A stretch of DNA of 64,000 bases, from the IMG/VR virus record IMGVR_UViG_3300045988_161114, positions 120,640-184,639 of that record; one strand, written 5' to 3'. Made by a program: the position numbers and the translations under genes. The notes beneath the pieces were generated by a model. That model was not told where the DNA came from and did not search any database. It saw nothing but the letters and a program-made list of their open reading frames with translations. Positions 24,580 to 64,000 of the stretch are shown piece after piece (positions within the stretch are counted from its first letter, which is position 1; every line of letters begins with the position of its first letter). The DNA comes from a virus.

Positions 24580-24836
24580 TGCATTAAATTGCATAAATTG
24601 ACGTAAAAAGCAATCAAAATTTGTATGCATCTATTTATATCGGGTTTACATTCGGTATAAGTGGTGCATACAAAAACAAAACTTTGTAGAATATTGAAAT
24701 ATAAAGAAATATTCTTATGTAAAAGTTTATTAAGAAGTGTATGCAATTTAAATAGCTCAATAAGCATGTAGTCATGCATCGGGTATATCAAACGACTTTT
24801 TTAACTGGGCCAAAGCATATTTTGTGTACATTTCTT

Positions 24837-25340
24837 AATGAGCTTTTGCTCATTTATTGCCGTAAAGGTGATATTTATTAAGATCGTTTGGACGCGGGTT
24901 CGACTCCCGCCAACTCCACCAAAAGACATTTCAAAGATGTTGATACTCTGAAAAGAGTTAGCGATTCCATATAGCCTATTTTTAACCCTATTACATTATT
25001 GCGATTGAGTTAAAATGTCTTATGAGATGTCTTCTGATGGGGTTGTAATGGAATTCGACAGGCGGTGAATAGGGATATTGCTCGGCACGAGTTGCTTCGT
25101 AAAAGCAAAATTAAAATAAATGCAAACGATGATGTTTACATGGTACGCGCCGCTGCCTAATTTAGGTAGTTGAGCATAAATGTACAGGGTTTGGACAGTA
25201 CCTGGTAACAGAAACTGTCCGAGAATTCTAACACTGCGGCTAGTGCACAGTGAGTTTCGTAATCGTCTACGATTGGGTAGAGCTGGAATCGTAACCAGCA
25301 ATTATAAAAGAGTAAATATGTTTGGGCATACCTAGTAACC
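24837..25340 (+). ncRNA. ssrA: Circularly permuted (two-piece) tmRNA gene: acceptor piece, spacer, coding piece
   Basis: 24890-24921 is GGACGCGGGTTCGACTCCCGCCAACTCCACCA (T arm + 3' acceptor strand + CCA). 25039 onward is GGGGTTGTAATGGAATTCGACAGG (tmRNA 5' end). GGGGTTG/CAACTCC pair with a G3.U70 wobble. Tag ORF: GCA at 25122, ANDDVYMVRAAA, TAA at 25158-25160. The outer ends are approximate. Confidence 0.7.
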
Positions 25341-56835: not shown

Positions 56836-57162
56836 ATGAATACCAAAAGATTCTATATATTGAAAGAAAATGCAATTTCTTCTATATTTAATGATAAAGA
56901 ATATAATCCCAATATTTTTTCTATTAATGATTTAAAAGAAATTGGTTCTTTAAATAATTACTCTGTTGTTTATACTAAATCAACTTCAGAGTTTTTACAC
57001 AGAAATCTTATATTGTTTTCTGAATATGTAATCGATATTGTTATTTTTGGGAATGATTTAAAGTCTTTTAATGTTCTCAAAAGTAGAGCTGCATTTACTA
57101 TGGAAAATGCAGTAGAATTGTTAGATTTGATTGAGGTAAATAAATATGCAGCAATATATTAA
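56836..57162 (+). CDS. Hypothetical protein
   Basis: 108 aa. Confidence 0.6.
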   Translation: MNTKRFYILKENAISSIFNDKEYNPNIFSINDLKEIGSLNNYSVVYTKSTSEFLHRNLILFSEYVIDIVIFGNDLKSFNVLKSRAAFTMENAVELLDLIEVNKYAAIY

Positions 57163-58015
57163 TTTGGTTAAGGATGTTTTAGAGAATGGAACTCCAAAAC
57201 CAAACCGTACAGAAATCCCTACGCCATATACGGTATTCGGGCGCCAGATTCGATTTGATTTGTCGGAAGGTTTACCTATTCTGACAACCAAGAAGATGGC
57301 TGTAAAAGCCTGTATCGCTGAACTATTGTGGTTTATCGAAGGGAGTTCTCATGAACGTCGTTTAGCCGAGATTCAATACCAAAAGCCTCGCAAAGAATTA
57401 AGAAATAAACGGACAATTTGGTCTGATAATTATGAAGCATGGACTGGTAAAAAGATTAGTAATGTTCGCTATGGAGATCTTGGCTGTGTGTATGGAGTTC
57501 AATGGCGAAATTTTACTATTTATGGTAATCACGCACTTGCAGATGATTTTGACCAATTATTTTGGTTGGTCAATGAATTGAAAACAAATCCCAATAGCCG
57601 GAAGTTAATTATGCTGTCATACAATCCGGCACAAATTGAGAACGCCGCATTAACAGCTTGTCATACACAAGTCCAATTCCAAGTACAAAATGGGAAATTG
57701 AATTGTATGTGGACACAAGCAAGTGTTGACTTATTTCTTGGACTTCCATTCAATATTCTTTCTTATGCTATTTTAACTCATATGTTGGCAAAAGAAGTAG
57801 GGCTCGAAGTTGGAGAACTGATTGGTTCTCTTGGAGACGTACACATTTATGAAAACGCCGTTGAAAATTTAAAGACACAAATTGAACGTGAGCCATTGCC
57901 TCTTCCTAAATTATGGCTAAATCCTGATAAGGATATTTTCCATTATAAAATGGATGATATTCGTATTGATGGATATGAAAGCCATGAAGTATTAAAAGCT
58001 AAAATGGCGGTTTGA
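57146..58015 (+). CDS. thyA: Thymidylate synthase (ThyA) family enzyme
   Basis: NRT...TTKK...ELLWFIEG...ACHTQVQFQV (catalytic Cys)...DLFLGLPFNILSYAIL...GDVHIY is collinear with E. coli ThyA. The QRS phosphate-binding Arg position reads QAS. Confidence 0.85.
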   Translation: MQQYINLVKDVLENGTPKPNRTEIPTPYTVFGRQIRFDLSEGLPILTTKKMAVKACIAELLWFIEGSSHERRLAEIQYQKPRKELRNKRTIWSDNYEAWTGKKISNVRYGDLGCVYGVQWRNFTIYGNHALADDFDQLFWLVNELKTNPNSRKLIMLSYNPAQIENAALTACHTQVQFQVQNGKLNCMWTQASVDLFLGLPFNILSYAILTHMLAKEVGLEVGELIGSLGDVHIYENAVENLKTQIEREPLPLPKLWLNPDKDIFHYKMDDIRIDGYESHEVLKAKMAV

Positions 58016-58121: not shown

Positions 58122-58763
58122 ATGGAAATTCTTAGTTCTATTTTTTATAAAATTATCAATTATATAAATTTATATTTATTTAGTGGGAGTTCTTTTAAGA
58201 TCAGAAAGCTTGCTAAAAAGAATAATGGAGACTCAATTTATTCTTCTGCCAGTTTAATGAGTCCATCTTATGTAAAAGTTATATTCCATGATATAGTTGA
58301 TTATAAGAATTTTATAAGAGATGTTATTTTAAATTCTAGTGATATAAAAAATTGGGATTTTTATTTTGCTACTGTTTTAGAAAACAATAATATTATAGCA
58401 ACCTTCCATTATTCTAATGATGAAAATCTTCCTGATATTTTAAGTAAAAAATATATTGATATTGCTTTGCATTCATTGGATATATTTTCTAATATTATTG
58501 AAAGTAATAGTATTTTAGAAATGAAAGTTGAAAGCAATACGGTAATTATTCCGGATGGTTATAATTATTATATTAGTGGTCCTAATAAGTCTACAACCAT
58601 TACTAAAGATGATAAGAAATTGGTTATAAAAAATGAAAGTTATTGCTTGTTAAGCAATTCTTGCTTTGAAGTTTTAAAAAATATGATTGAAAAAATTTCT
58701 TATCAAAACAAAATTTTGTACAATATTGATTTGGATTTAGATAATTTAAAGTTATTCAAATAA
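58122..58763 (+). CDS. Hypothetical protein
   Basis: 213 aa. Confidence 0.65.
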   Translation: MEILSSIFYKIINYINLYLFSGSSFKIRKLAKKNNGDSIYSSASLMSPSYVKVIFHDIVDYKNFIRDVILNSSDIKNWDFYFATVLENNNIIATFHYSNDENLPDILSKKYIDIALHSLDIFSNIIESNSILEMKVESNTVIIPDGYNYYISGPNKSTTITKDDKKLVIKNESYCLLSNSCFEVLKNMIEKISYQNKILYNIDLDLDNLKLFK

Positions 58764-58786: not shown

Positions 58787-59099
58787 CCTTGGGAAGCTTA
58801 AACCCGGTATAAGCAATCGACTCATGAATAATCGTGCGTTTGGAAACGAAAGTTCCAAAATGAATTGGATGAATTCAGGGAAACCTAAGTCTTTTAGATA
58901 TGGCAATCCTGAGCCAAGCTAAGAGCCAACTCTTAGAAGGTGCAACGACTACTGGAGAGGTAAAGGTCCTCTTAATGACCAGATTAGCGTCCAACGCCTA
59001 AGTGATTTATCATATGGCGGTGATATAGTCTAGGGAGTATAGAAATATACACAAACCTGAATCGATAGACAGTGGGTTCGAATCCCACCCCAAGGACCA
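58787..59099 (+). tRNA. tRNA(CAU) (Ile2 or Met) interrupted by a group I intron
   Basis: Acceptor ccttggg/cccaagg. D arm gctt..aagc. Anticodon stem atcga/tcgat. Loop ctCAT|intron|aa. T arm gtggg-ttcgaat-cccac. Encoded CCA. Not initiator-like, because the anticodon stem has no GGG/CCC. Confidence 0.8.
58826..59059 (+). ncRNA. Group I intron, IC3-like (Azoarcus tRNA-Ile intron type), 234 nt, no ORF
   Basis: Inserted after U36 of the anticodon and ends in G. GTG at 58835-58837 can pair with the exon CAU (G.U). The core GGGAAACCTAAG...TATGGCAATCCTGAGCCAAGC matches the remembered Azoarcus core GAAACCUAAG...UAUGGCAA..GAGCCAAGC. Confidence 0.75.
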
Positions 59100-59178
59100 A
59101 GTTTATAAGGTGTTTGGCGTTATTTAAAGCGCCAAATGCCGTGTAAATTTATTTAGAATTTTTGTCTAAGGAACTATT

Positions 59179-60756
59179 ATGACATCTCCACTTTTTAAAA
59201 CTCAACGTCCTAAATTGGCAGTTGGTAAAACTACAAGTATTCCTGCCACTCGTGTTAACACTATAAACGAAGCTGGTGGCGCTGCTTATTCAATGAGTCA
59301 TGAACATGCATTAGCTCAATATGTAGTTACAGGTATGTTTGATAACACTTGTTATCTTGATGGACATACTCAACTTAAGCATATTAAAGAGCTTGCTAAT
59401 AAATGTAGTAATAATTTTGTTATGCGTTTGGCTGTTTATGCTCATGAATATGGTTATATGAAAGATACTTCTGCATATCTGCTTGGTTATTTAATGAAAC
59501 AGAATGACAAGAGTTATTTTAAACGTGCATTTCCGCTCGTTATTACAAATGGCCGTATGCTTCGTACATTTGTTCAAATTATTCGTTCTGGTGCATTTGG
59601 TTCTCGTAGTTTTGGTACAGTGGCCAAAAAAGCTATTCAAGACTATTTGAATAACTGTACTGATAAACAAATTATTAATGCTTCTATTGGTAATAATCCA
59701 TCTCTTAAAGATGTGATCATGATGGTTCATCCTAAAGCAAACAATAGTTCACGTAATCAACTTTATCGTTGGGTATGTGGCTTTGATTTTGATGAAAAAC
59801 AGTTACCGGTAGAATTGCAAAAATATTTAAAATTGCAAAAAGATCCATCTGGATTTGAAGAGCTTCCAAAAGTTCCATTCCAAATGTGTACAAGTATGCC
59901 ATTGACTGATGCTGGATGGAAAGCAATTTTTGATATTTCAACTTGGCAACAAATTCGTATGAATTTGGCTACTTTTGATCGACATAATGTCTTCAATGAT
60001 TTTTCTTATGTAAATAAAGCATATGAACGTTTAGTTTCTCGTGACGATATTCTTCGTTCTAAAGTTATGCCTTATTCTGTATTTAGTGCATATCTAAATG
60101 CAGGTTCTATTCCTGCTCGTATTAAAGATGCATTGAATACTGCTTTACAAATTAGTCTTGAGAATATCCCAAAGACTGATGGCAAAACAGTTCTTGCAAT
60201 TGATTATTCTGGTTCTATGACCTGGAAAATTAATTTGAAAAGTTCTGTTCGTCATATTGATATTGCTGCAGTATTTGCTGCTGCATTGAAATTCCGTAAT
60301 CCGGAAGCAGAGATTGTTTTATTTAACAGTCGCGCAAGAGACTATATTGTCAATCCGGAAACCACTGTGTTACAATTAGCTAATAATATTTCTCGTTTAG
60401 CCAATGGTGGCACTGATTGTGGTGCAGCCCTTCAGCATATTTATGATAAAGGTCGTTATAGTGGAATGCCTGACAATATCATTATGATTAGTGATAATCA
60501 ATCATGGCTTGGATTCAATAGAGGCCATAAAACCACTGCGCAAAGAATTTTCGATGATATTCGAAAAATTAATCCTCGCGCCAAAATGGTTAATATTGAT
60601 ATTGCACCAATGTCAAGTTCTCAGACTTCACCTAGTGAACATGTACTTAATATCGGCGGATTTAATGATACAGTATTTAAAATTGTATCAGATTTCTTTG
60701 AGTCTAAAGGCGATAAGTCATTCTGGGTAAACAAAATTAAGGCTATTGAAATTTAA
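59179..60756 (+). CDS. Ro60-like TROVE-domain + vWA protein (Rsr orthologue)
   Basis: 525 aa. N-terminal ..NEAGGAAY...ALAQYVVTGMFDNTCY.. is TROVE-like. The C-terminal vWA domain has the MIDAS motif LAIDYSGSM. Confidence 0.8.
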   Translation: MTSPLFKTQRPKLAVGKTTSIPATRVNTINEAGGAAYSMSHEHALAQYVVTGMFDNTCYLDGHTQLKHIKELANKCSNNFVMRLAVYAHEYGYMKDTSAYLLGYLMKQNDKSYFKRAFPLVITNGRMLRTFVQIIRSGAFGSRSFGTVAKKAIQDYLNNCTDKQIINASIGNNPSLKDVIMMVHPKANNSSRNQLYRWVCGFDFDEKQLPVELQKYLKLQKDPSGFEELPKVPFQMCTSMPLTDAGWKAIFDISTWQQIRMNLATFDRHNVFNDFSYVNKAYERLVSRDDILRSKVMPYSVFSAYLNAGSIPARIKDALNTALQISLENIPKTDGKTVLAIDYSGSMTWKINLKSSVRHIDIAAVFAAALKFRNPEAEIVLFNSRARDYIVNPETTVLQLANNISRLANGGTDCGAALQHIYDKGRYSGMPDNIIMISDNQSWLGFNRGHKTTAQRIFDDIRKINPRAKMVNIDIAPMSSSQTSPSEHVLNIGGFNDTVFKIVSDFFESKGDKSFWVNKIKAIEI

Positions 60757-60990
60757 TAGCTTAAATAACGTTCCTATAGTTGGGTATTGGTTTCGTTTCC
60801 TTTAACGATATCTGGTTATATGATTGCTATCTGTATTTTGATACAGATAGTGGACTGCACAAAAACAATCAAATGTACGAAAATGCAGATAATCGTACCT
60901 TATAATCAACTGAACCATTTCTTTTGATAGTTGATTTCTACTTTGTAGAGTAATGAGTATTCTAGTAGTATTCATTGCTATGTAAAATAT

Positions 60991-61068
60991 CTAGGCGTAG
61001 CGCAGTCCGGTTAGCGTGCCTGCTTTGGAAGCAGGGGGTCGTAGGTTCAAATCCTACCGTCTAGACCA
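60991..61068 (+). tRNA. tRNA-Pro(UGG)
   Basis: ctaggcg ta gcgc-agtccggtta-gcgt g cctgc-ttTGGaa-gcagg gggtc gtagg-ttcaaat-cctac cgtctag a cca. Confidence 0.85.
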
Positions 61069-61077
61069 AAGATTTAT

Positions 61078-61214
61078 GGGCTGTTGGCGAAATTGGTAGA
61101 CGCAAGGGTTAGTTTAACCTATTAAATTTGTCCAACAGGAATGCTTATAGGTTTACATTTTAAATTGGAAACTTAATACACCCTCTTTTGTGAGTTCGAT
61201 TCTTACACAGCCCA
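61078..61214 (+). tRNA. tRNA-shaped gene A carrying the conserved inserted module (isotype unresolved)
   Basis: Perfect acceptor gggctgt/acagccc. Leu-like D arm gcga-aattggtag-acgc. T arm gtgag-ttcgatt-cttac. No encoded CCA. Module at 61116-61157. agggt(61105)/accct(61183) could be the anticodon stem, but no canonical 7-nt loop was found. Confidence 0.5.
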
Positions 61215-61226
61215 TCCCATTTAAAT

Positions 61227-61351
61227 GCGGAGATAGTTCAAGGGTAGAATGCTTAAAAATTACTTTATAACTTTGTCTGTAAAGAATGCTGTAAAGTTTA
61301 CAATTCCATTCCAAGGAAGTGATGCAGGTTCGAGTCCTGTTCTCCGCTCCA
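61227..61351 (+). tRNA. tRNA-Gly(UCC) carrying the conserved inserted module
   Basis: gcggaga ta gttc-aagggta-gaat g c[tt.. module 61262-61302 ..]ttcc-atTCCaa-ggaag tgat gcagg-ttcgagt-cctgt tctccgc t cca. Without the ~51-nt insert it is collinear with E. coli tRNA-Gly(UCC). Confidence 0.65.
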
Positions 61352-61383
61352 AATTAAAATAGACACATATCCGAGGAATTTAA

Positions 61384-61908
61384 ATGCGAACAATAGTAAT
61401 AAATCTTATAGGAGCCCCTGGTACTGGTAAAAATACAATTGCGTCAGAATTGTTTGCAAAAATGAAATGGGCGGGATATGATGTTGAATTAGTTTCTGAA
61501 TATGCTAAAGAGCTTGTTTGGGAACAAAGAGATGAGACGTTTAAAAACGAATTGTACCTATTTGCTAAACAGCAACATAGAATGTTTAGACTTAATGGCA
61601 AGGTAAAATATATTATTACTGACCGACCATTAATTTTATCTGTATTTTATAATAAGAAATACGGAGATAATAGTAAAGTTTTTAAAGATCTCGTATTACA
61701 AGAGATTGATAAGTTTGAAAATATAAATATATTCCTTAATAGAACTAAACCATATGTTCAAAAAGGAAGAAATCAAACTGAAGAAGAATCTATAGAATTC
61801 GCATTTGAAATGCGTGATATAGTTAAAGAGTATTGTGGCAATTTAATAGTTCTTGATGCTATTGAAAATTCTGCCTCTAATTATATACTTAGCTTATTGA
61901 AAGAATAA
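61384..61908 (+). CDS. P-loop NTPase (small kinase-like)
   Basis: Walker A LIGAPGTGKNT. 174 aa. Confidence 0.7.
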   Translation: MRTIVINLIGAPGTGKNTIASELFAKMKWAGYDVELVSEYAKELVWEQRDETFKNELYLFAKQQHRMFRLNGKVKYIITDRPLILSVFYNKKYGDNSKVFKDLVLQEIDKFENINIFLNRTKPYVQKGRNQTEEESIEFAFEMRDIVKEYCGNLIVLDAIENSASNYILSLLKE

Positions 61909-61923
61909 ACAACTGGTGTTATT

Positions 61924-62070
61924 ATGATAGTATATGAAGTCTATCAATTTGATGGTAGTAATTGCCATCGACTAAAATTGTTTATGTCGTTTGAAGAAGC
62001 AAGAGATTACTTGTTTAATCAGAAGGATTCAATATCGTTTTCGCATGGCATGCGGCAAATAGCAATATAA
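61924..62070 (+). CDS. Hypothetical small protein (48 aa)
   Basis: Its stop overlaps the next ATG (TAATG). Below the ORF-track cutoff. Confidence 0.45.
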   Translation: MIVYEVYQFDGSNCHRLKLFMSFEEARDYLFNQKDSISFSHGMRQIAI

Positions 62071-62294
62071 TGAAAATCTGGAAAATTAAAAAGGCAGAAG
62101 TTAAAGAAATTCTTGAAATAAAAGGATATTTCTTTTGCCACAAATACAAATATTCGCATGATAAAGCTAGAACAATTATGCGCCAATTGTGCAAAGAGGG
62201 TCTAGCAAAAAGATGCCCTAGTCCACCTGGACATATGGATACTGTTTGTATCGAATTAATTAAAAATAGTATTACAGAAGTTCAGCCTGTTTAA
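62070..62294 (+). CDS. Hypothetical small protein
   Basis: 74 aa. Confidence 0.6.
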   Translation: MKIWKIKKAEVKEILEIKGYFFCHKYKYSHDKARTIMRQLCKEGLAKRCPSPPGHMDTVCIELIKNSITEVQPV

Positions 62295-62338
62295 AGTTTT
62301 TGTCTTTCATTTTTTCGGGTTCCTTCTGTACCCAATTT

Positions 62339-62465
62339 GAGGGGTTAGTTTAATCGGGAAAACATTATTGGGAATTTTACAATTTTGTCCCTTATTGGAA
62401 TGCAGTAAGATTTACATTTCACGGCTAATGAAAAGATGTAGGTTCGAGTCCTACACCCCTTACCA
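62339..62465 (+). tRNA. tRNA-shaped gene C carrying the conserved inserted module (anticodon loop atypical)
   Basis: gaggggt ta gttt-aatcggga-aaac a [module 62373-62416] tttca-cgGCTaa-tgaaa agat gtagg-ttcgagt-cctac acccctt a cca. Position 33 is G rather than U. The nominal anticodon is GCU but there is no long variable arm. Confidence 0.5.
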
Positions 62466-62485
62466 AAACAAAAATAGAGACTTCT

Positions 62486-62647
62486 ATGAGAAAATTTAAT
62501 AAGCAAACTATATACAATAGTAATGGATCATTTGTTATGAGTGATACTCAAAAACATAATGTTAAAGTTGGTGGCTATGTATGGAATGCATGTTTCCTAA
62601 TTTTATTTGCCGCTAAAGTTTTCGGCTTTGCAACATATTCTTGGTAG
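62486..62647 (+). CDS. Small membrane protein (53 aa), frame continues past an in-frame TAG to 62755
   Basis: ATG 62486...TAG 62645-62647. The same frame stays open for 35 more, hydrophobic codons and ends in a TGA that overlaps the next ATG. Confidence 0.5.
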   Translation: MRKFNKQTIYNSNGSFVMSDTQKHNVKVGGYVWNACFLILFAAKVFGFATYSW

Positions 62648-62751
62648 GTTGTATTTTCTCCATACCTAATTTTATTGGGTTTAGTTTTACTTATTTTGTT
62701 TGTCTGGTTTATAGCAGCAGTAGCTATTATTGCTGGATCAGGTAGCAGACA

Positions 62752-62967
62752 ATGAAAAAATATTCTTTCTCATATAGATTCGATAATAAAGACTGGACAA
62801 TTAGTATTTATGCTGATAGTGAAAAAGAAGCCAAAAGAAAATTTTGGGCTTTAAAAGAAAATGGCAAATACGATGGTGAGATCGTTTGTAAAATCAATGC
62901 TACAAAGCAATATAATTTTATCAAATCTATTTATCAAAAGATTAAAAATGTATGGAACTCAAACTAA
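62752..62967 (+). CDS. Hypothetical small protein
   Basis: 71 aa. Confidence 0.6.
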   Translation: MKKYSFSYRFDNKDWTISIYADSEKEAKRKFWALKENGKYDGEIVCKINATKQYNFIKSIYQKIKNVWNSN

Positions 62968-63036
62968 TATTAAAAATCAGATATTAGTCCCTGAGTCTAT
63001 ATACATGGGTGTTTACCATCCATGCTCTATTTAAAT

Positions 63037-63128
63037 GCGCTCATAGTTTAATTGGATAAAACAACTGGTTTCTACCCAGTATCCCGTCGAAGGGCTAGTT
63101 CCGGGTTCGAGTCCTGGTGGGCGTGCCA
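63037..63128 (+). tRNA. tRNA with UCU anticodon (nominally Arg) and a class-II-like long variable arm
   Basis: gcgctca ta gttt-aattggat-aaac a actgg-ttTCTac-ccagt atCCCgtcgaaGGGctagtt ccggg-ttcgagt-cctgg tgggcgt g cca. Confidence 0.7.
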
Positions 63129-63149
63129 AATTTATTTCCGAGATACACA

Positions 63150-63353
63150 ATGAAATATTTCAATTGTTTTGTAAAATATGCTATTAGAGAAGAACATACT
63201 ATGTTTATTCAGATGTCAGAGGGATGTATGAATAGCCCTTGTATTGGTGATATTAATAATGCAATTAGAAAAAAGATTGCAGATAGGCATTATGGCGATG
63301 GCGAATCTGCAAAAATACTTGAAGTAAATATTCTTGGTCAATTTGAGATTTAA
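63150..63353 (+). CDS. Hypothetical small protein
   Basis: The ATG at 63150 was chosen because the track GTG start overlaps the tRNA 3' end. Confidence 0.55.
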   Translation: MKYFNCFVKYAIREEHTMFIQMSEGCMNSPCIGDINNAIRKKIADRHYGDGESAKILEVNILGQFEI

Positions 63354-63520
63354 GTTAACAACTCCTCTACCTTTACCCATCTATGTGTTGGGAGTAATAA
63401 GGGTAGAGGCTATCGGATAAGCCCTACCAATTTTCATATTATATATATACTTAATTAATATATTAGAAGTTTCACTTCAAATTTTGATTTGGTAGGCAAC
63501 ATTACAGTCTTTCTTTCTGA

Positions 63521-63592
63521 AGAACAATAGCCTATGTTGGATAGGGCAGCGGAGGTGTCCGCGTATCGTTGGTTCGATTCCAATTTGTTCAA
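63521..63592 (+). ncRNA. Anticodon-less tRNA-like RNA
   Basis: agaacaa ta gcct-atgttggata-gggc a gcgga-GGTG-tccgc gtatc gttgg-ttcgatt-ccaat ttgttca a. The anticodon arm is a 5-bp stem capped by a tetraloop. There is no CCA. Leader and trailer pair (63510-63520 with 63596-63606). Confidence 0.5.
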
Positions 63593-64000
63593 ATATCAGC
63601 AAGAAAACTTATTGTAGGAATCCTGACTATTAAAGTGGTTTGGGTGCTTATTAATATTGTTATTCAAGTTATGGATTCCTACAATTTAAGAATCCCTATG
63701 TCCATTAGGTTAAATGGCTGACTTAGATTGGTTCAAAGCAATCAATCCTGTTGCAGCGGTATCTGTACGTTGGGAACTTTCGATAATAGCTCTGGTCTTT
63801 TTGCGTGTGGAATTCCTTAATAAAACGCGCCGAACCGACAATGAGATATAATATTCGGATAGGCTTAGCTTTTGACTATGAAGAGTGATGTCTTCGGAAC
63901 GTAAAAGCATCTGCGCTGTAAAAGTATGCAGAGTGGTAAGTGCTTGAGAACTTACTGCTGTGTATATTTTAAGAATCCCGCGAGTCTTCGGTTAATGACT

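What the first reader, a model, noticed from the sequence alone, without database searches (positions are those of the whole stretch)
63508..63606. tRNA mimic with a tetraloop instead of an anticodon loop, on a long leader-trailer helix
Seen in sequence:
- 63521-63592 has an acceptor stem (6 of 7 pairs), U8-A9, D arm gcct/gggc, a 5-nt variable loop and T arm gttgg-TTCGATT-ccaat.
- The anticodon arm is gcgga-GGTG-tccgc, so no anticodon exists.
- No CCA is encoded.
- Leader tttctttctga (63510-63520) pairs 10 of 11 with trailer tcagcaagaaa (63596-63606). This continues the acceptor stem across a 4-nt AATA bulge.

Established knowledge: bacterial YrlA Y RNAs encoded near rsr (Ro60) contain a tRNA-like domain joined to a bulged stem that binds Ro60.

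Inference: this may be a Y-RNA-like partner of the Ro60 gene 2.8 kb upstream. Its topology is the opposite of YrlA, because the open end is at the acceptor side. Alternatively it may be a decoy for host factors that read the acceptor/T-arm 'elbow', such as tRNA-targeting toxins, RNase P or the CCA enzyme.
Basis: partly seen in the sequence, partly recalled or inferred. Interest (0 to 1): 0.7.

Follow-up and report, generated by a model that had tools for sequence, protein, structure and literature searches.

The report
Conserved anticodon-less tRNA mimic in phage
A gut phage carries a well-conserved small RNA gene shaped like a tRNA, with a 4-base cap instead of an anticodon and both ends locked in a long stem, so it cannot decode; it probably acts as a tRNA-shaped adaptor or decoy, possibly for the phage's Ro60 protein.

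Summary
Window 63521-63592 scores as a tRNA (Rfam 35.2 bits, threshold 29). Its anticodon arm is gcgga-GGTG-tccgc, no CCA is encoded, and a 13-bp leader/trailer helix (63507-63520 with 63596-63608) extends the acceptor stem.

It is not a decaying pseudogene. Seven distinct copies occur in uncultured ~175-185 kb T4-like gut phages whose Ro60 proteins are only 52-97% identical. The GGUG loop never changes, every stem pairs in every copy, and stems show compensatory and G-U changes. The core is 89% identical between two phages whose real tRNAs are 73-81% identical.

It belongs to a tandem array of small RNA units that lies 1.5-3 kb downstream of Ro60. Each unit is closed by a helix reading UUUAA-GCC[bulged C]...GGC-A. 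Several units are tRNA-like with a tetraloop or a loop lacking U33.

Function is inferred. My best reading (0.35) is a Y-RNA-like adaptor for Ro60, with the topology of Deinococcus Yrn1 rather than YrlA. Against this, it lacks the CGAA motif, and two lineages keep Ro60 without the array. The main rival (0.3) is a Ro60-independent stable tRNA mimic comparable to T4 RNA C and D, whose function is still unknown.

The parts
63507..63520 (+). 5' strand of the closing helix (leader). G63507 and U63508 pair, C63509 is bulged, 63510-63515 pair, U63516 faces C63600, and 63517-63520 pair.
   Evidence: Read. Duplex of 13 bp, dG -9.8, z -3.3. The equivalent helix of 12 bp is present in all six other distinct copies, with different sequences.
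63521..63592 (+). tRNA-like core: acceptor stem with 6 of 7 pairs (A1.A72 mismatch), U8, A9, D arm, tetraloop arm, 5-nt variable loop, T arm and discriminator A.
   Evidence: Rfam RF00005 35.2 bits. All 140 stem cells pair across 7 sequences, with 3 compensatory pairs. RNAalifold recovers the cloverleaf.
63530..63547 (+). D arm: gcct / atgttggata / gggc, with A14, G18, G19 and A21.
   Evidence: The stem is invariant in all 7 copies.
63549..63562 (+). Arm at the anticodon position: a 5-bp stem capped by an invariant GGUG tetraloop (63554-63557).
   Evidence: GCGGA/UCCGC becomes GCGAG/CUCGC in the distant copies (two compensatory pairs) and GCGGA/UCUGC (a G-U pair) in L024, while the loop never changes. 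The hairpin is also kept in the variant that has lost the T arm, L021 13128-13215.
63568..63584 (+). T arm: gttgg-TTCGATT-ccaat, with G53-C61, U54, U55, C56 and A58.
   Evidence: The third stem pair changes from U-A to C-G in the distant copies.
63592..63595 (+). AAUA, the 3' side of the asymmetric internal loop between the acceptor stem and the closing helix, where CCA would be. The loop also takes in the A1.A72 mismatch.
   Evidence: The other tRNAs of the cluster encode NCCA here.
63596..63608 (+). 3' strand of the closing helix (trailer).
   Evidence: The pair U63510-A63606 in the window is C-G in L006 and L024.
63421..63497 (+). Neighbouring unit of the same array: an AT-rich interior closed by GCC[C]UACCAA...UUGGUAGGC.
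   Evidence: Homologues lie directly upstream of the mimic in L006 and L024. Helix-closed units of another sequence precede it in L011, L016 and L017.
59179..60756 (+). Ro60 (TROVE/vWA) gene, the proposed but unproven protein partner.
   Evidence: Pfam vWA_Ro60. It has 333 homologues. It lies upstream of the tRNA/ncRNA island in every family locus.
63037..63128 (+). tRNA-Arg(UCU) with a long variable arm whose loop reads GUCGAA. It marks the start of the ncRNA stretch and is a rival candidate for Ro60 binding.
   Evidence: UCGAAGG is kept in about 20 family loci. Some lineages instead have an ordinary class I Arg or no Arg at all.
63678..64000 (+). 5' part of a conserved structured noncoding RNA of about 500 nt. 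It runs off the window and ends at tRNA-Leu(UAG), L002 15008.
   Evidence: nhmmer E from 1e-13 to 1e-102 in 22 other family loci. 51 of 105 predicted pairs show compensatory changes. No gene is called there and there is no Rfam match.

Best explanation
The element is the gene for a small, stable, non-decoding tRNA mimic.

**How it is made.** It is probably co-transcribed with the phage tRNA/ncRNA cluster and released by cuts in the 5-9-nt AU-rich linkers between units. This is inferred from the spacing.

**What the sequence shows.**
- Its 5' and 3' ends are locked in a 12-13-bp helix with a bulged C and an internal mismatch.
- The acceptor end is therefore not free, and no CCA is encoded.
- A GGUG tetraloop replaces the anticodon loop.
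- The D/T elbow is complete.

**Proposed role (inferred).** It works like a Y RNA. The bulged end-to-end helix docks on the phage Ro60 encoded 2.8 kb upstream. The tRNA-shaped head and the invariant GGUG hairpin then recruit or block a second factor. One candidate is host PNPase, as in the Ro60/Y RNA/PNPase complexes described for Deinococcus, Salmonella and Thermus phage phiLo.

**Family.** It is one of several interchangeable heads mounted on the same closing helix in a tandem array.
For: **It is a real tRNA-like fold.** Rfam tRNA 35.2 bits. The fold has z = -2.6.

**It is under selection.**
- There are seven distinct copies, in phages whose Ro60 is 52-97% identical to the window's.
- The GGUG loop is invariant.
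- All 140 stem cells pair, with 3 compensatory pairs and 3 G-U changes. The G-U changes fit an RNA read from the + strand.
- RNAalifold finds the same fold without guidance.
- The closing helix keeps 12-13 bp in every copy although its inner half is replaced: CUGA/UCAG in the window, CUAAG/CUUAG in L017.
- The core is 88.9% identical between the window phage and L011. Four real tRNAs of the same two phages are 73-81% identical and the Ro60 gene is 64%.

**It differs from the working tRNAs of the cluster.** Those mostly encode CCA, mostly pair 7 of 7 in the acceptor stem, and have no helix lying flush against the acceptor stem.

**It has the Y-RNA layout.** Published descriptions give a long stem formed by the 5' and 3' ends plus an effector module that in bacteria is tRNA-like, with no CCA end and no anticodon loop (10.1101/312249). 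Yrn1 has this same orientation, with a 5-bp 'anticodon' stem and a short loop (PMC4201824). Animal Ro60 recognises a bulged helix (PMC12135203).

**The same bulged-C helix closes many different units just downstream of Ro60 on the same strand**. This parallels several Y RNAs sharing one Ro60-binding stem.

**Association with Ro60.**
- Every IMG/VR contig that holds the GGUG hairpin also holds Ro60.
- Relatives without Ro60 (L116-L119) have no such units.
- In the unrelated Myxococcus phage Mx1, Ro60 also sits in a tRNA island.
- Phage Ro60 proteins with their own Y-like RNAs are documented.
Against: - There is no binding or expression data of any kind.
- The element has no CGAA or GNCGAA(N)G motif (the motifs are defined).
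- L001/L030 and L018/L039 keep Ro60 but lack the mimic and every other helix-closed unit.
- Those lineages do keep a tRNA-Arg whose variable arm carries UCGAAGG. That arm is an equally good Ro60 candidate.
- T4 has no Ro60, yet it carries tRNA-like stable RNAs right after tRNA-Arg.
- All loci come from one phage family, so the co-occurrence with Ro60 may be simple shared descent.
- The Ro60-less relatives also lack nearly the whole tRNA cluster, which confounds that comparison.
- The L021/L041 variant has lost the T arm, so the tRNA elbow is not indispensable.
Confidence: 0.35

Rival explanations
1. It is a stable tRNA mimic that works without Ro60. It would be the counterpart of the T4 small stable RNAs C and D. 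It could act as a decoy, sponge or inhibitor for a host factor that reads the tRNA body, such as a tRNA-directed defence nuclease or a modification or processing enzyme, or it could have some other trans-acting role.
For: - T4 has tRNA-Arg followed by rnaD and rnaC. The window has tRNA-Arg(UCU) followed by this array.
- T4 rnaC folds with a T arm and paired termini and has no anticodon arm. Its function is still unknown (PMC9697503).
- The window phage encodes Rnl1, PNKP and a second RNA ligase just upstream. That is the T4 toolkit against anticodon nucleases.
- Sister units include one with a canonical Lys-UUU loop. tRNA-Lys(UUU) is, from my own knowledge, the classical target of such nucleases.
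- Each type keeps its own loop sequence, which suggests a specific ligand.
- Two lineages have Ro60 without the array.
Against: - There is no sequence homology with T4 rnaC or rnaD.
- A 4-nt loop cannot bait a nuclease that reads anticodon loops.
- The buried acceptor end cannot bait enzymes that act on the CCA end.
- A decoy for a catalytic nuclease is a weak strategy unless it is an uncleavable inhibitor.
- This reading does not explain the shared bulged-C helix.
Confidence: 0.3
2. It acts in cis as a processing or stability element of the cluster transcript. In this reading a tRNA-shaped punctuation mark and a leader/trailer stem guide RNase P, Z, III or E cuts that release the neighbouring RNAs, and the excised piece has no job of its own.
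For: - Units are packed head to tail with linkers of only 5-9 nt, and there are no promoter-like or terminator-like sites beside the element.
- The same closing helix flanks non-tRNA units as well.
- The element lies between other structured RNAs, including the ~500-nt RNA.
Against: - Punctuation needs only the acceptor/T minihelix. It would not explain an invariant GGUG loop, a core more conserved than real tRNAs, or the retention of the GGUG and D hairpins after the T arm was lost.
- From my own knowledge, a leader paired to the trailer hinders RNase P rather than helping it.
Confidence: 0.15
3. The end helix is only a precursor feature. RNase P and 3' trimming remove leader and trailer, host CCA-adding enzyme completes the end, and the mature ~75-nt anticodon-less tRNA is aminoacylated or otherwise used outside decoding.
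For: - M. smegmatis YrlA is cut by RNase P and receives CCA (PMC4201824).
- The acceptor/T minihelix and the elbow are intact.
- The discriminator A73 and the A72 next to it are invariant.
Against: - Compensatory changes keep the leader/trailer helix paired, which argues that it is part of the functional molecule.
- The A1.A72 mismatch is kept in all copies.
- No known identity set is present. There is no G3:U70 and no long variable arm.
- The other tRNAs of these phages nearly all encode their CCA.
Confidence: 0.1
4. It is a decaying tRNA pseudogene that happened to lose three loop bases.
For: - The region is a hot spot for rearrangement. L001 has an HNH endonuclease gene and a tRNA 3' remnant at this position.
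- The window itself seems to have lost the unit that follows the mimic in L006 and L024.
Against: - Seven distinct copies across deep divergence keep all stems paired through compensatory and G-U changes.
- The loop is invariant.
- The core is more conserved than functional tRNAs.
Confidence: 0.03

Closest known systems
Deinococcus radiodurans Yrn1 (Y RNA bound by the Ro60 orthologue Rsr)
   Same: - A long stem made from the 5' and 3' ends sits where the acceptor end would be.
- It has a tRNA-like T arm.
- The arm at the anticodon position has a 5-bp stem and a shortened loop.
- It has no CCA end.
- It is encoded next to Ro60 on the same strand.
(PMC4201824; 10.1101/312249.)
   Different: - Yrn1 has a 6-nt loop, only a partial D arm and no variable loop. 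Here the cloverleaf is complete and the loop has 4 nt.
- Yrn1 carries a recognised Ro60-binding sequence, which is not seen here.
- Yrn1 lies upstream of rsr, whereas this element lies downstream.
- I did not have the Yrn1 sequence, so homology was not tested.
YrlA Y RNAs of bacteria and mycobacteriophages
   Same: - A tRNA mimic with intact D/T tertiary nucleotides, no anticodon loop and no free CCA end.
- Encoded within 4 kb of Ro60 on the same strand.
- D and T stems conserved beyond what the fold requires.
   Different: - YrlA is circularly permuted: the T arm comes before the D arm, the acceptor stem is closed by a loop, and the ends lie on the anticodon side.
- YrlA carries GNCGAA(N)G near its 5' end.
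- Neither feature holds here.
Phage T4 small stable RNAs C and D (species 1 and 2, rnaC and rnaD)
   Same: - Small non-tRNA RNAs inside the tRNA cluster of a T4-type phage, immediately after tRNA-Arg.
- rnaC has a canonical T arm and paired termini but no anticodon arm.
- Their function is unknown (PMC9697503).
   Different: - There is no detectable sequence similarity.
- T4 rnaC is 139 nt, with long hairpins in place of the D and anticodon arms.
- It has no UUUAAGCC[C]...GGCA closing helix.
- T4 has no Ro60.
Yrl1 and Yrl2 of Thermus phage phiLo
   Same: Phage-encoded RNAs next to a phage Ro60, each with a 5'-3' stem. They were shown to bind Ro60 and host PNPase (PMC12135203).
   Different: They were defined by CGAA-bearing hairpins or bulges and are not described as tRNA-like. 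The mimic has no CGAA.
Other tRNA mimics that cannot decode (tmRNA tRNA-like domain, mascRNA)
   Same: An acceptor/T-arm elbow is kept while the anticodon function is lost.
   Different: Those RNAs have free, processed acceptor ends: tmRNA is aminoacylated and mascRNA is made by RNase P and Z. Here the end is sequestered in a conserved helix.

Membership tests
Canonical (decoding) tRNA | 7-nt anticodon loop with U33 and an anticodon | tested here: not met
   The loop is the 4-nt GGUG in all 7 distinct copies. ARAGORN makes no call.
Canonical (decoding) tRNA | Cloverleaf with conserved D-loop and T-loop nucleotides | tested here: met
   Rfam RF00005 35.2 bits against a gathering score of 29. 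U8, A14, G18, G19, A21, G53-C61, U54, U55, C56 and A58 are read.
Canonical (decoding) tRNA | Free acceptor end carrying CCA (encoded in the other tRNAs of this phage) | tested here: not met
   AAUA follows position 72. The flanks form a conserved 12-13-bp helix. Most canonical tRNAs of the cluster encode NCCA and none has a helix flush with the acceptor stem.
YrlA Y RNA | Encoded within about 4 kb of Ro60 on the same strand | tested here: met
   It lies 2765 nt downstream of Ro60 on the + strand. The same arrangement holds in all copies.
YrlA Y RNA | GNCGAA(N0-1)G (CGAA) motif near the 5' end | tested here: not met
   There is none in 63507-63608. The only match near Ro60 is at 63086, in the tRNA-Arg variable arm.
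YrlA Y RNA | Permuted tRNA-like domain: T arm 5' of the D arm, closed acceptor loop, ends at the anticodon side | tested here: not met
   The arms are in normal tRNA order and the ends are at the acceptor side. No Y-RNA family matched at E up to 10. That check is uninformative, however, because bacterial Ro60 loci used as a control also gave no Y-RNA match.
YrlA Y RNA | Binds Ro60 | not testable with these tools
   This needs EMSA or immunoprecipitation.
Y RNA in the broad sense (including Yrn1) | Long stem formed by the 5' and 3' ends, with bulged nucleotides, that carries the Ro60 site | tested here: inconclusive
   The helix is present, conserved and bulged. Nothing shows that it is a Ro60 site, and it has no known Ro60 motif.
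Y RNA in the broad sense (including Yrn1) | A second module of loops or stem-loops, tRNA-like in bacteria | tested here: met
.
T4-type stable RNAs (rnaC and rnaD) | Position in the tRNA cluster of a T4-like phage, after tRNA-Arg | tested here: met
   T4 layout. In the window, Arg is at 63037-63128 and the mimic starts 393 nt later. rIIB and other T4-like genes are present in the family.
T4-type stable RNAs (rnaC and rnaD) | Sequence homology | tested here: not met
   nhmmer found nothing at E up to 10 against the T4 region. blastn of 59000-64000 against 50,697 phage records matched only the tRNA-Pro.
tRNA pseudogene | Unconstrained substitutions that break stems, with patchy conservation | tested here: not met
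   100% of stem cells pair, changes are compensatory or G-U, and the core is more conserved than real tRNAs.

The most novel reading that the evidence does not exclude
The element would be one head of a previously undescribed modular system. In this reading, a tandem array of Y-RNA-like units shares one bulged-C docking helix for phage Ro60. Each unit carries a different tRNA-derived head: GGUG- or GACG-capped, Lys-UUU-like, or with a CGAUAAC loop. Together with the phage RNA-repair enzymes, the array would let the phage capture, shield or degrade specific tRNA-directed host factors or RNAs. This would also suggest a function for the T4 RNAs C and D, which have been unexplained since they were first described.
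Probability: 0.2. Interest if true: 0.85.

Novelty: new variant of a known kind. Interest (0 to 1): 0.66.

Why it matters
Phage tRNA clusters are usually read only as codon-supply or anti-defence devices.

Here a tRNA-shaped RNA that cannot decode is kept more strictly than the working tRNAs beside it. It is one of a set of similarly packaged RNAs next to a phage Ro60 gene and an RNA-repair gene set.

If it binds Ro60, three things follow:
- The Y-RNA family gains a non-permuted, fully cloverleaf form.
- Phages would be shown to carry arrays of Y RNAs with exchangeable heads.
- There would be a tractable in vitro system: one protein and RNAs of about 100 nt.

If it does not bind Ro60, it is a clean, covariation-supported example of the unexplained class of stable tRNA-like phage RNAs known from T4.

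Either way, the locus is a compact source of new structured RNAs, including an RNA of about 500 nt with strong covariation.

Tried and rejected
- **Rfam Y-RNA or YrlA match.** Nothing matched at E up to 10 around the element or at E up to 1 across L002. The control on seven bacterial or jumbo-phage Ro60 loci also returned no Y-RNA family. This negative result therefore carries no weight.
- **Published YrlA alignments.** The supplement of PMC4201824 is not held, so I could not build a YrlA model. Two reviews were also not held.
- **Exact-sequence scans of IMG/VR with window-type strings.** These gave no match. The window clade is absent from IMG/VR.
- **Architecture pattern GCGGA-N4-TCCGC-N8-GGTTCGANTCC in IMG/VR.** This gave two unrelated hits.
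  - L005 lies between the relaxase and coupling-protein genes of an integrative element and may be an oriT-type DNA structure.
  - L004 encodes CCA.
  - I rejected both as comparators.
- **GNCGAA(N)G scan.** The count is at chance level in the window. The only hit near Ro60 is in the tRNA-Arg variable arm.
- **Promoter and terminator scan.** Nothing informative lies beside the element.
- **UUUAAGCC as a promoter.** I considered this and rejected it. The spacers between units are only 5-9 nt, and the GCC is part of the helix.
- **GenBank phages.** There is no DNA homologue. The nearest Ro60 is 39% identical, in Myxococcus phage Mx1.
- **Homology to T4 rnaC or rnaD.** None was found.
- **Protein-coding reading.** Only ORFs of 41-50 aa overlap the element, none is called in the source contig, and the substitution pattern follows the stems.
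- **GGAGGUG as a Shine-Dalgarno mimic.** The window copy contains this string, but distant copies read GAGGGUG, so I did not pursue the idea.
- **Tools left unused.** I did not build a covariance model, and I did not spend the one genome-contig scan.
Full report
**1. What is in the sequence**

- The acceptor stem is agaacaa/ttgttca, with 6 of 7 pairs and an A1.A72 mismatch.
- U8 and A9 are present.
- The D arm is gcct/gggc. Its 10-nt loop holds A14, G18, G19 and A21.
- An arm gcgga-GGTG-tccgc sits where the anticodon arm should be.
- The variable loop has 5 nt.
- The T arm is gttgg-TTCGATT-ccaat.
- The discriminator is A, followed by AUA rather than CCA.
- Leader 63510-63520 pairs 10 of 11 with trailer 63596-63606.

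I add two more pairs beyond a bulged C63509: G63507-C63608 and U63508-A63607. That makes 13 bp in all.

The Rfam tRNA model scores 63521-63592 at 35.2 bits, above its gathering score of 29, and places 4 nt where it expects 7. ARAGORN does not call it. The minimum-energy fold of 63508-63606 is the cloverleaf plus the outer helix, z = -2.6.

**2. Where the window comes from**

The window matches a 184.7-kb contig from a human gut metagenome (L002), 100% identical over the element and carrying the same Ro60 protein. Window position equals L002 position plus 49178.

Upstream lie these genes, in order: NAPRTase, a PP-loop ATPase, a metallophosphatase, T4-type RNA ligase 1, PNKP, a second RNA ligase, ThyA, a group I intron and Ro60. 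A tRNA cluster follows.

Ro60 homologues define a family of uncultured phages of about 175-185 kb that carry T4-like genes such as rIIB. No isolated phage is close. The best Ro60 match in 50,697 GenBank phage records is 39% identical, in Myxococcus phage Mx1. No DNA homologue of the element exists in that collection.

**3. It is conserved, not decaying**

nhmmer and blastn find the element in six further distinct sequences:
- L006
- L024
- L011
- L036
- L016
- L017, which is identical to L019, L038 and L069

The Ro60 proteins of these phages are 52-97% identical to the window's.

*Loop and stems.*
- The GGUG loop is invariant.
- The stem below it reads GCGGA/UCCGC in the window clade, GCGGA/UCUGC (one G-U pair) in L024, and GCGAG/CUCGC elsewhere. 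The last form is two compensatory swaps.
- The T stem changes from GUUGG/CCAAU to GUCGG/CCGAU.
- Two acceptor pairs become G-U or U-G.
- On alignment A5, all 140 stem cells form standard pairs. Sliding the partners by one to three columns drops this to 29-57%.
- RNAalifold recovers the same cloverleaf and part of the outer helix without guidance.
- The G-U changes fit an RNA read from the + strand.

*Closing helix.*
- It has 12-13 bp in all seven copies, with dG from -9.8 to -14.9 and z from -2.2 to -4.3 against shuffled trailers.
- The pairing is kept through changes on both strands. U63510-A63606 in the window is C-G in L006 and L024.
- U-A becomes C-G in L036.
- The inner CUGA/UCAG is replaced by CUAAG/CUUAG in L017.

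*Degree of conservation.* Between the window phage and L011:

| Sequence | Identity |
|---|---|
| Mimic core (72 nt) | 88.9% |
| Four real tRNAs | 73-81% |
| Ro60 gene | 64% |

The pseudogene reading is therefore rejected.

**4. It differs from the working tRNAs beside it**

Most of the ordinary tRNAs of these phages encode NCCA, and most pair 7 of 7 in the acceptor stem. Their flanks show no helix lying flush against the acceptor stem. Their duplex energies are mostly between -0.5 and -8 and are never in register.

The mimic and about ten other CCA-less tRNA-like genes form a separate class. Most of them have a mismatch at position 1:72. All have a leader/trailer helix of -8 to -17 kcal/mol that abuts the acceptor stem.

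**5. It is one unit of an array**

Units with the signature UUUAA-GCC-[bulged C]-helix...helix-GGC-A lie in tandem 1.5-3 kb downstream of Ro60 on the same strand. They are separated by only 5-9 nt.

Their interiors differ:

| Unit type | Example or evidence |
|---|---|
| The GGUG mimic | this finding |
| tRNA-like with a 6-bp stem and GACG tetraloop | L008, L014, L017, L021 |
| tRNA-like with a CGAUAAC loop (no U33) | |
| tRNA-like with a GCGGAUG loop (no U33) | |
| Lys-UUU-like | |
| Ala-like | |
| Non-tRNA hairpin of 56 nt | |
| AT-rich unit | window 63421-63497, directly upstream of the mimic |

All these types were traced. nhmmer links the tRNA-like types to one another, so they are paralogues.

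A variant in L021 and L041 keeps the closing helix, the D hairpin and the GGUG hairpin but has lost the T arm and the 3' acceptor strand. The helix and the GGUG hairpin are therefore the most persistent parts.

The spacing leaves no room for separate promoters. No promoter-like or terminator-like sites flank the mimic. I infer that the units are co-transcribed and then cut apart in the AU-rich linkers.

**6. What it may do**

*The sequence shows:*
- the RNA cannot decode;
- it has no free acceptor end;
- it has an intact elbow;
- it carries a sequence-constrained hairpin.

*Published descriptions of Y RNAs fit this layout.*
- Y RNAs have a long stem made by the 5' and 3' ends that holds the Ro60 site, plus a second module. 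In many bacteria that module is a tRNA mimic without a CCA end or an anticodon loop (10.1101/312249).
- YrlA is circularly permuted, with its ends at the anticodon side.
- D. radiodurans Yrn1 has the orientation seen here, with a 5-bp 'anticodon' stem and a 6-nt loop (PMC4201824).
- Animal Ro60 recognises a bulged helix (PMC12135203).
- Phage Ro60 proteins with their own Y-like RNAs that engage host PNPase have been shown for Thermus phage phiLo.
- Several Y RNAs sharing one stem but differing in their heads is the normal Y-RNA pattern.

On this basis my best explanation is a Y-RNA-like adaptor for the adjacent Ro60.

*The case is circumstantial, and there are real counter-indications.*
- The mimic lacks the CGAA or GNCGAA(N)G motif used to recognise bacterial and phage Y RNAs.
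- L001/L030 and L018/L039 keep Ro60 but have none of the helix-closed units.
- Those lineages do keep a tRNA-Arg(UCU) whose extra variable arm displays UCGAAGG. That arm is a competing candidate for Ro60 binding.
- All the evidence comes from one phage family.
- The Ro60-less relatives L116-L119 lack the units, but they also lack almost the whole tRNA cluster.

*The T4 comparison.*
- In T4, tRNA-Arg is followed by the stable RNAs D and C.
- rnaC folds with a canonical T arm and paired termini but has no anticodon arm.
- Their functions are still unknown (PMC9697503).
- T4 has no Ro60.
- There is no sequence homology to the mimic.
- The positional and architectural parallel supports a rival in which such RNAs act independently of Ro60.

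I give the Ro60 adaptor reading 0.35. The other readings are: Ro60-independent mimic or decoy 0.30, cis-acting processing element 0.15, matured and CCA-tailed anticodon-less tRNA 0.10, and pseudogene 0.03.

**7. Comparison with known kinds, and novelty**

By direct test it is not a canonical tRNA, because it has no anticodon loop and no CCA or free end. It is not a YrlA, because it is not permuted and has no GNCGAA motif.

It works most like a Yrn1-type Y RNA or a T4 RNA C-type stable RNA. Membership in either could not be established.

I found no description of a fully cloverleaf, non-permuted tRNA mimic with a tetraloop-capped anticodon arm and a conserved bulged closing helix. I also found none of tandem arrays of such units.

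I class it as a new variant of a known kind, namely tRNA-mimicking small RNAs of phages and Y-RNA-like RNAs.

**8. Limits**
- There is no expression or binding data.
- Covariation rests on seven distinct sequences, and much of it maps to one deep split in the family.
- I aligned the outer helix by hand, because MAFFT shifts its register.
- The Rfam negative result for Y RNAs is uninformative.

Noticed in passing
window 63678-64000, continuing to L002 15005: A noncoding stretch of about 500 nt between the mimic and tRNA-Leu(UAG) is conserved in 22 other family loci (nhmmer E from 1e-13 to 1e-102). Its consensus fold has 105 pairs, 51 of them with compensatory changes. No ORF is called there and no Rfam family matches. 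It looks like a new large structured RNA.
   Followed up: partly
window 61227-61348, 62339-62462 and probably 61079-61216: These are tRNAs with full acceptor stems whose bodies are 50-70 nt too long; two of the three encode CCA. For the 61227 type, the extra piece is a sequence-conserved hairpin inserted between the D arm and the anticodon arm. The same scaffold carries different anticodon loops in different phages (UCC, GGU and others). It could be an odd fifth arm or a new kind of small intron. The phage encodes Rnl1 and PNKP, enzymes of a heal-and-seal pathway.
   Followed up: partly
window 63037-63128: tRNA-Arg(UCU) has a long variable arm: a 3-bp stem with the loop GUCGAA. UCGAAGG or ACGAAGG is kept in this arm in about 20 family loci, while some lineages have an ordinary class I Arg(UCU). 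CGAA is the motif used to recognise Ro60-binding RNAs of bacteria and phages, so this arm could be a grafted Ro60 site.
   Followed up: partly
L001 15552-15637; also L007 15462-15547, L011 15301-15387 and about 15 other family loci: A second anticodon-less tRNA mimic is present in many relatives. In L001 it is a class II-like tRNA shape with a long variable arm, a 7-bp stem capped by a GAAG tetraloop, no CCA and no closing helix. ARAGORN calls the homologues in L007 and L011 tRNA-Leu(UAA), so the tetraloop may not hold in every copy. It was not found in the 21.6-kb L002 locus around Ro60 or in the window.
   Followed up: partly
window 24796-25222: A two-piece (permuted) tmRNA gene is encoded by the phage, with tag peptide ANDDVYMVRAAA.
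   Followed up: no
window 58814-59052: A group I intron (83.6 bits) lies between a 213-aa ORF (58122-58763) and Ro60, with no obvious interrupted gene. ThyA (57146-58015) looks complete. L006 has an HNH gene at this place.
   Followed up: no
L001 14066-14556: In the close relative L001 (Ro60 93% identical), the position of the mimic is taken by an HNH endonuclease ORF followed by the 3' remnant of a tRNA (TTCGAGTCCCACCTTTCGCACCA). The island is a target of mobile endonucleases.
   Followed up: partly
L125 (Myxococcus phage Mx1, record 50969-64561): In this unrelated 170-kb phage, the Ro60 gene also sits inside a tRNA island. ARAGORN finds 16 tRNAs there, and a peptidyl-tRNA hydrolase gene lies nearby. 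The link between Ro60 and tRNA clusters therefore recurs.
   Followed up: partly
L005 8857-8935 (- strand): A high-GC element has a tRNA-like fold with a cgcgga-GTTG-tccgcg arm and a leader/trailer helix of about 14 bp. It lies between the relaxase and coupling-protein genes of an integrative element, with no Ro60 nearby. It may be an oriT-type structure rather than an RNA.
   Followed up: partly
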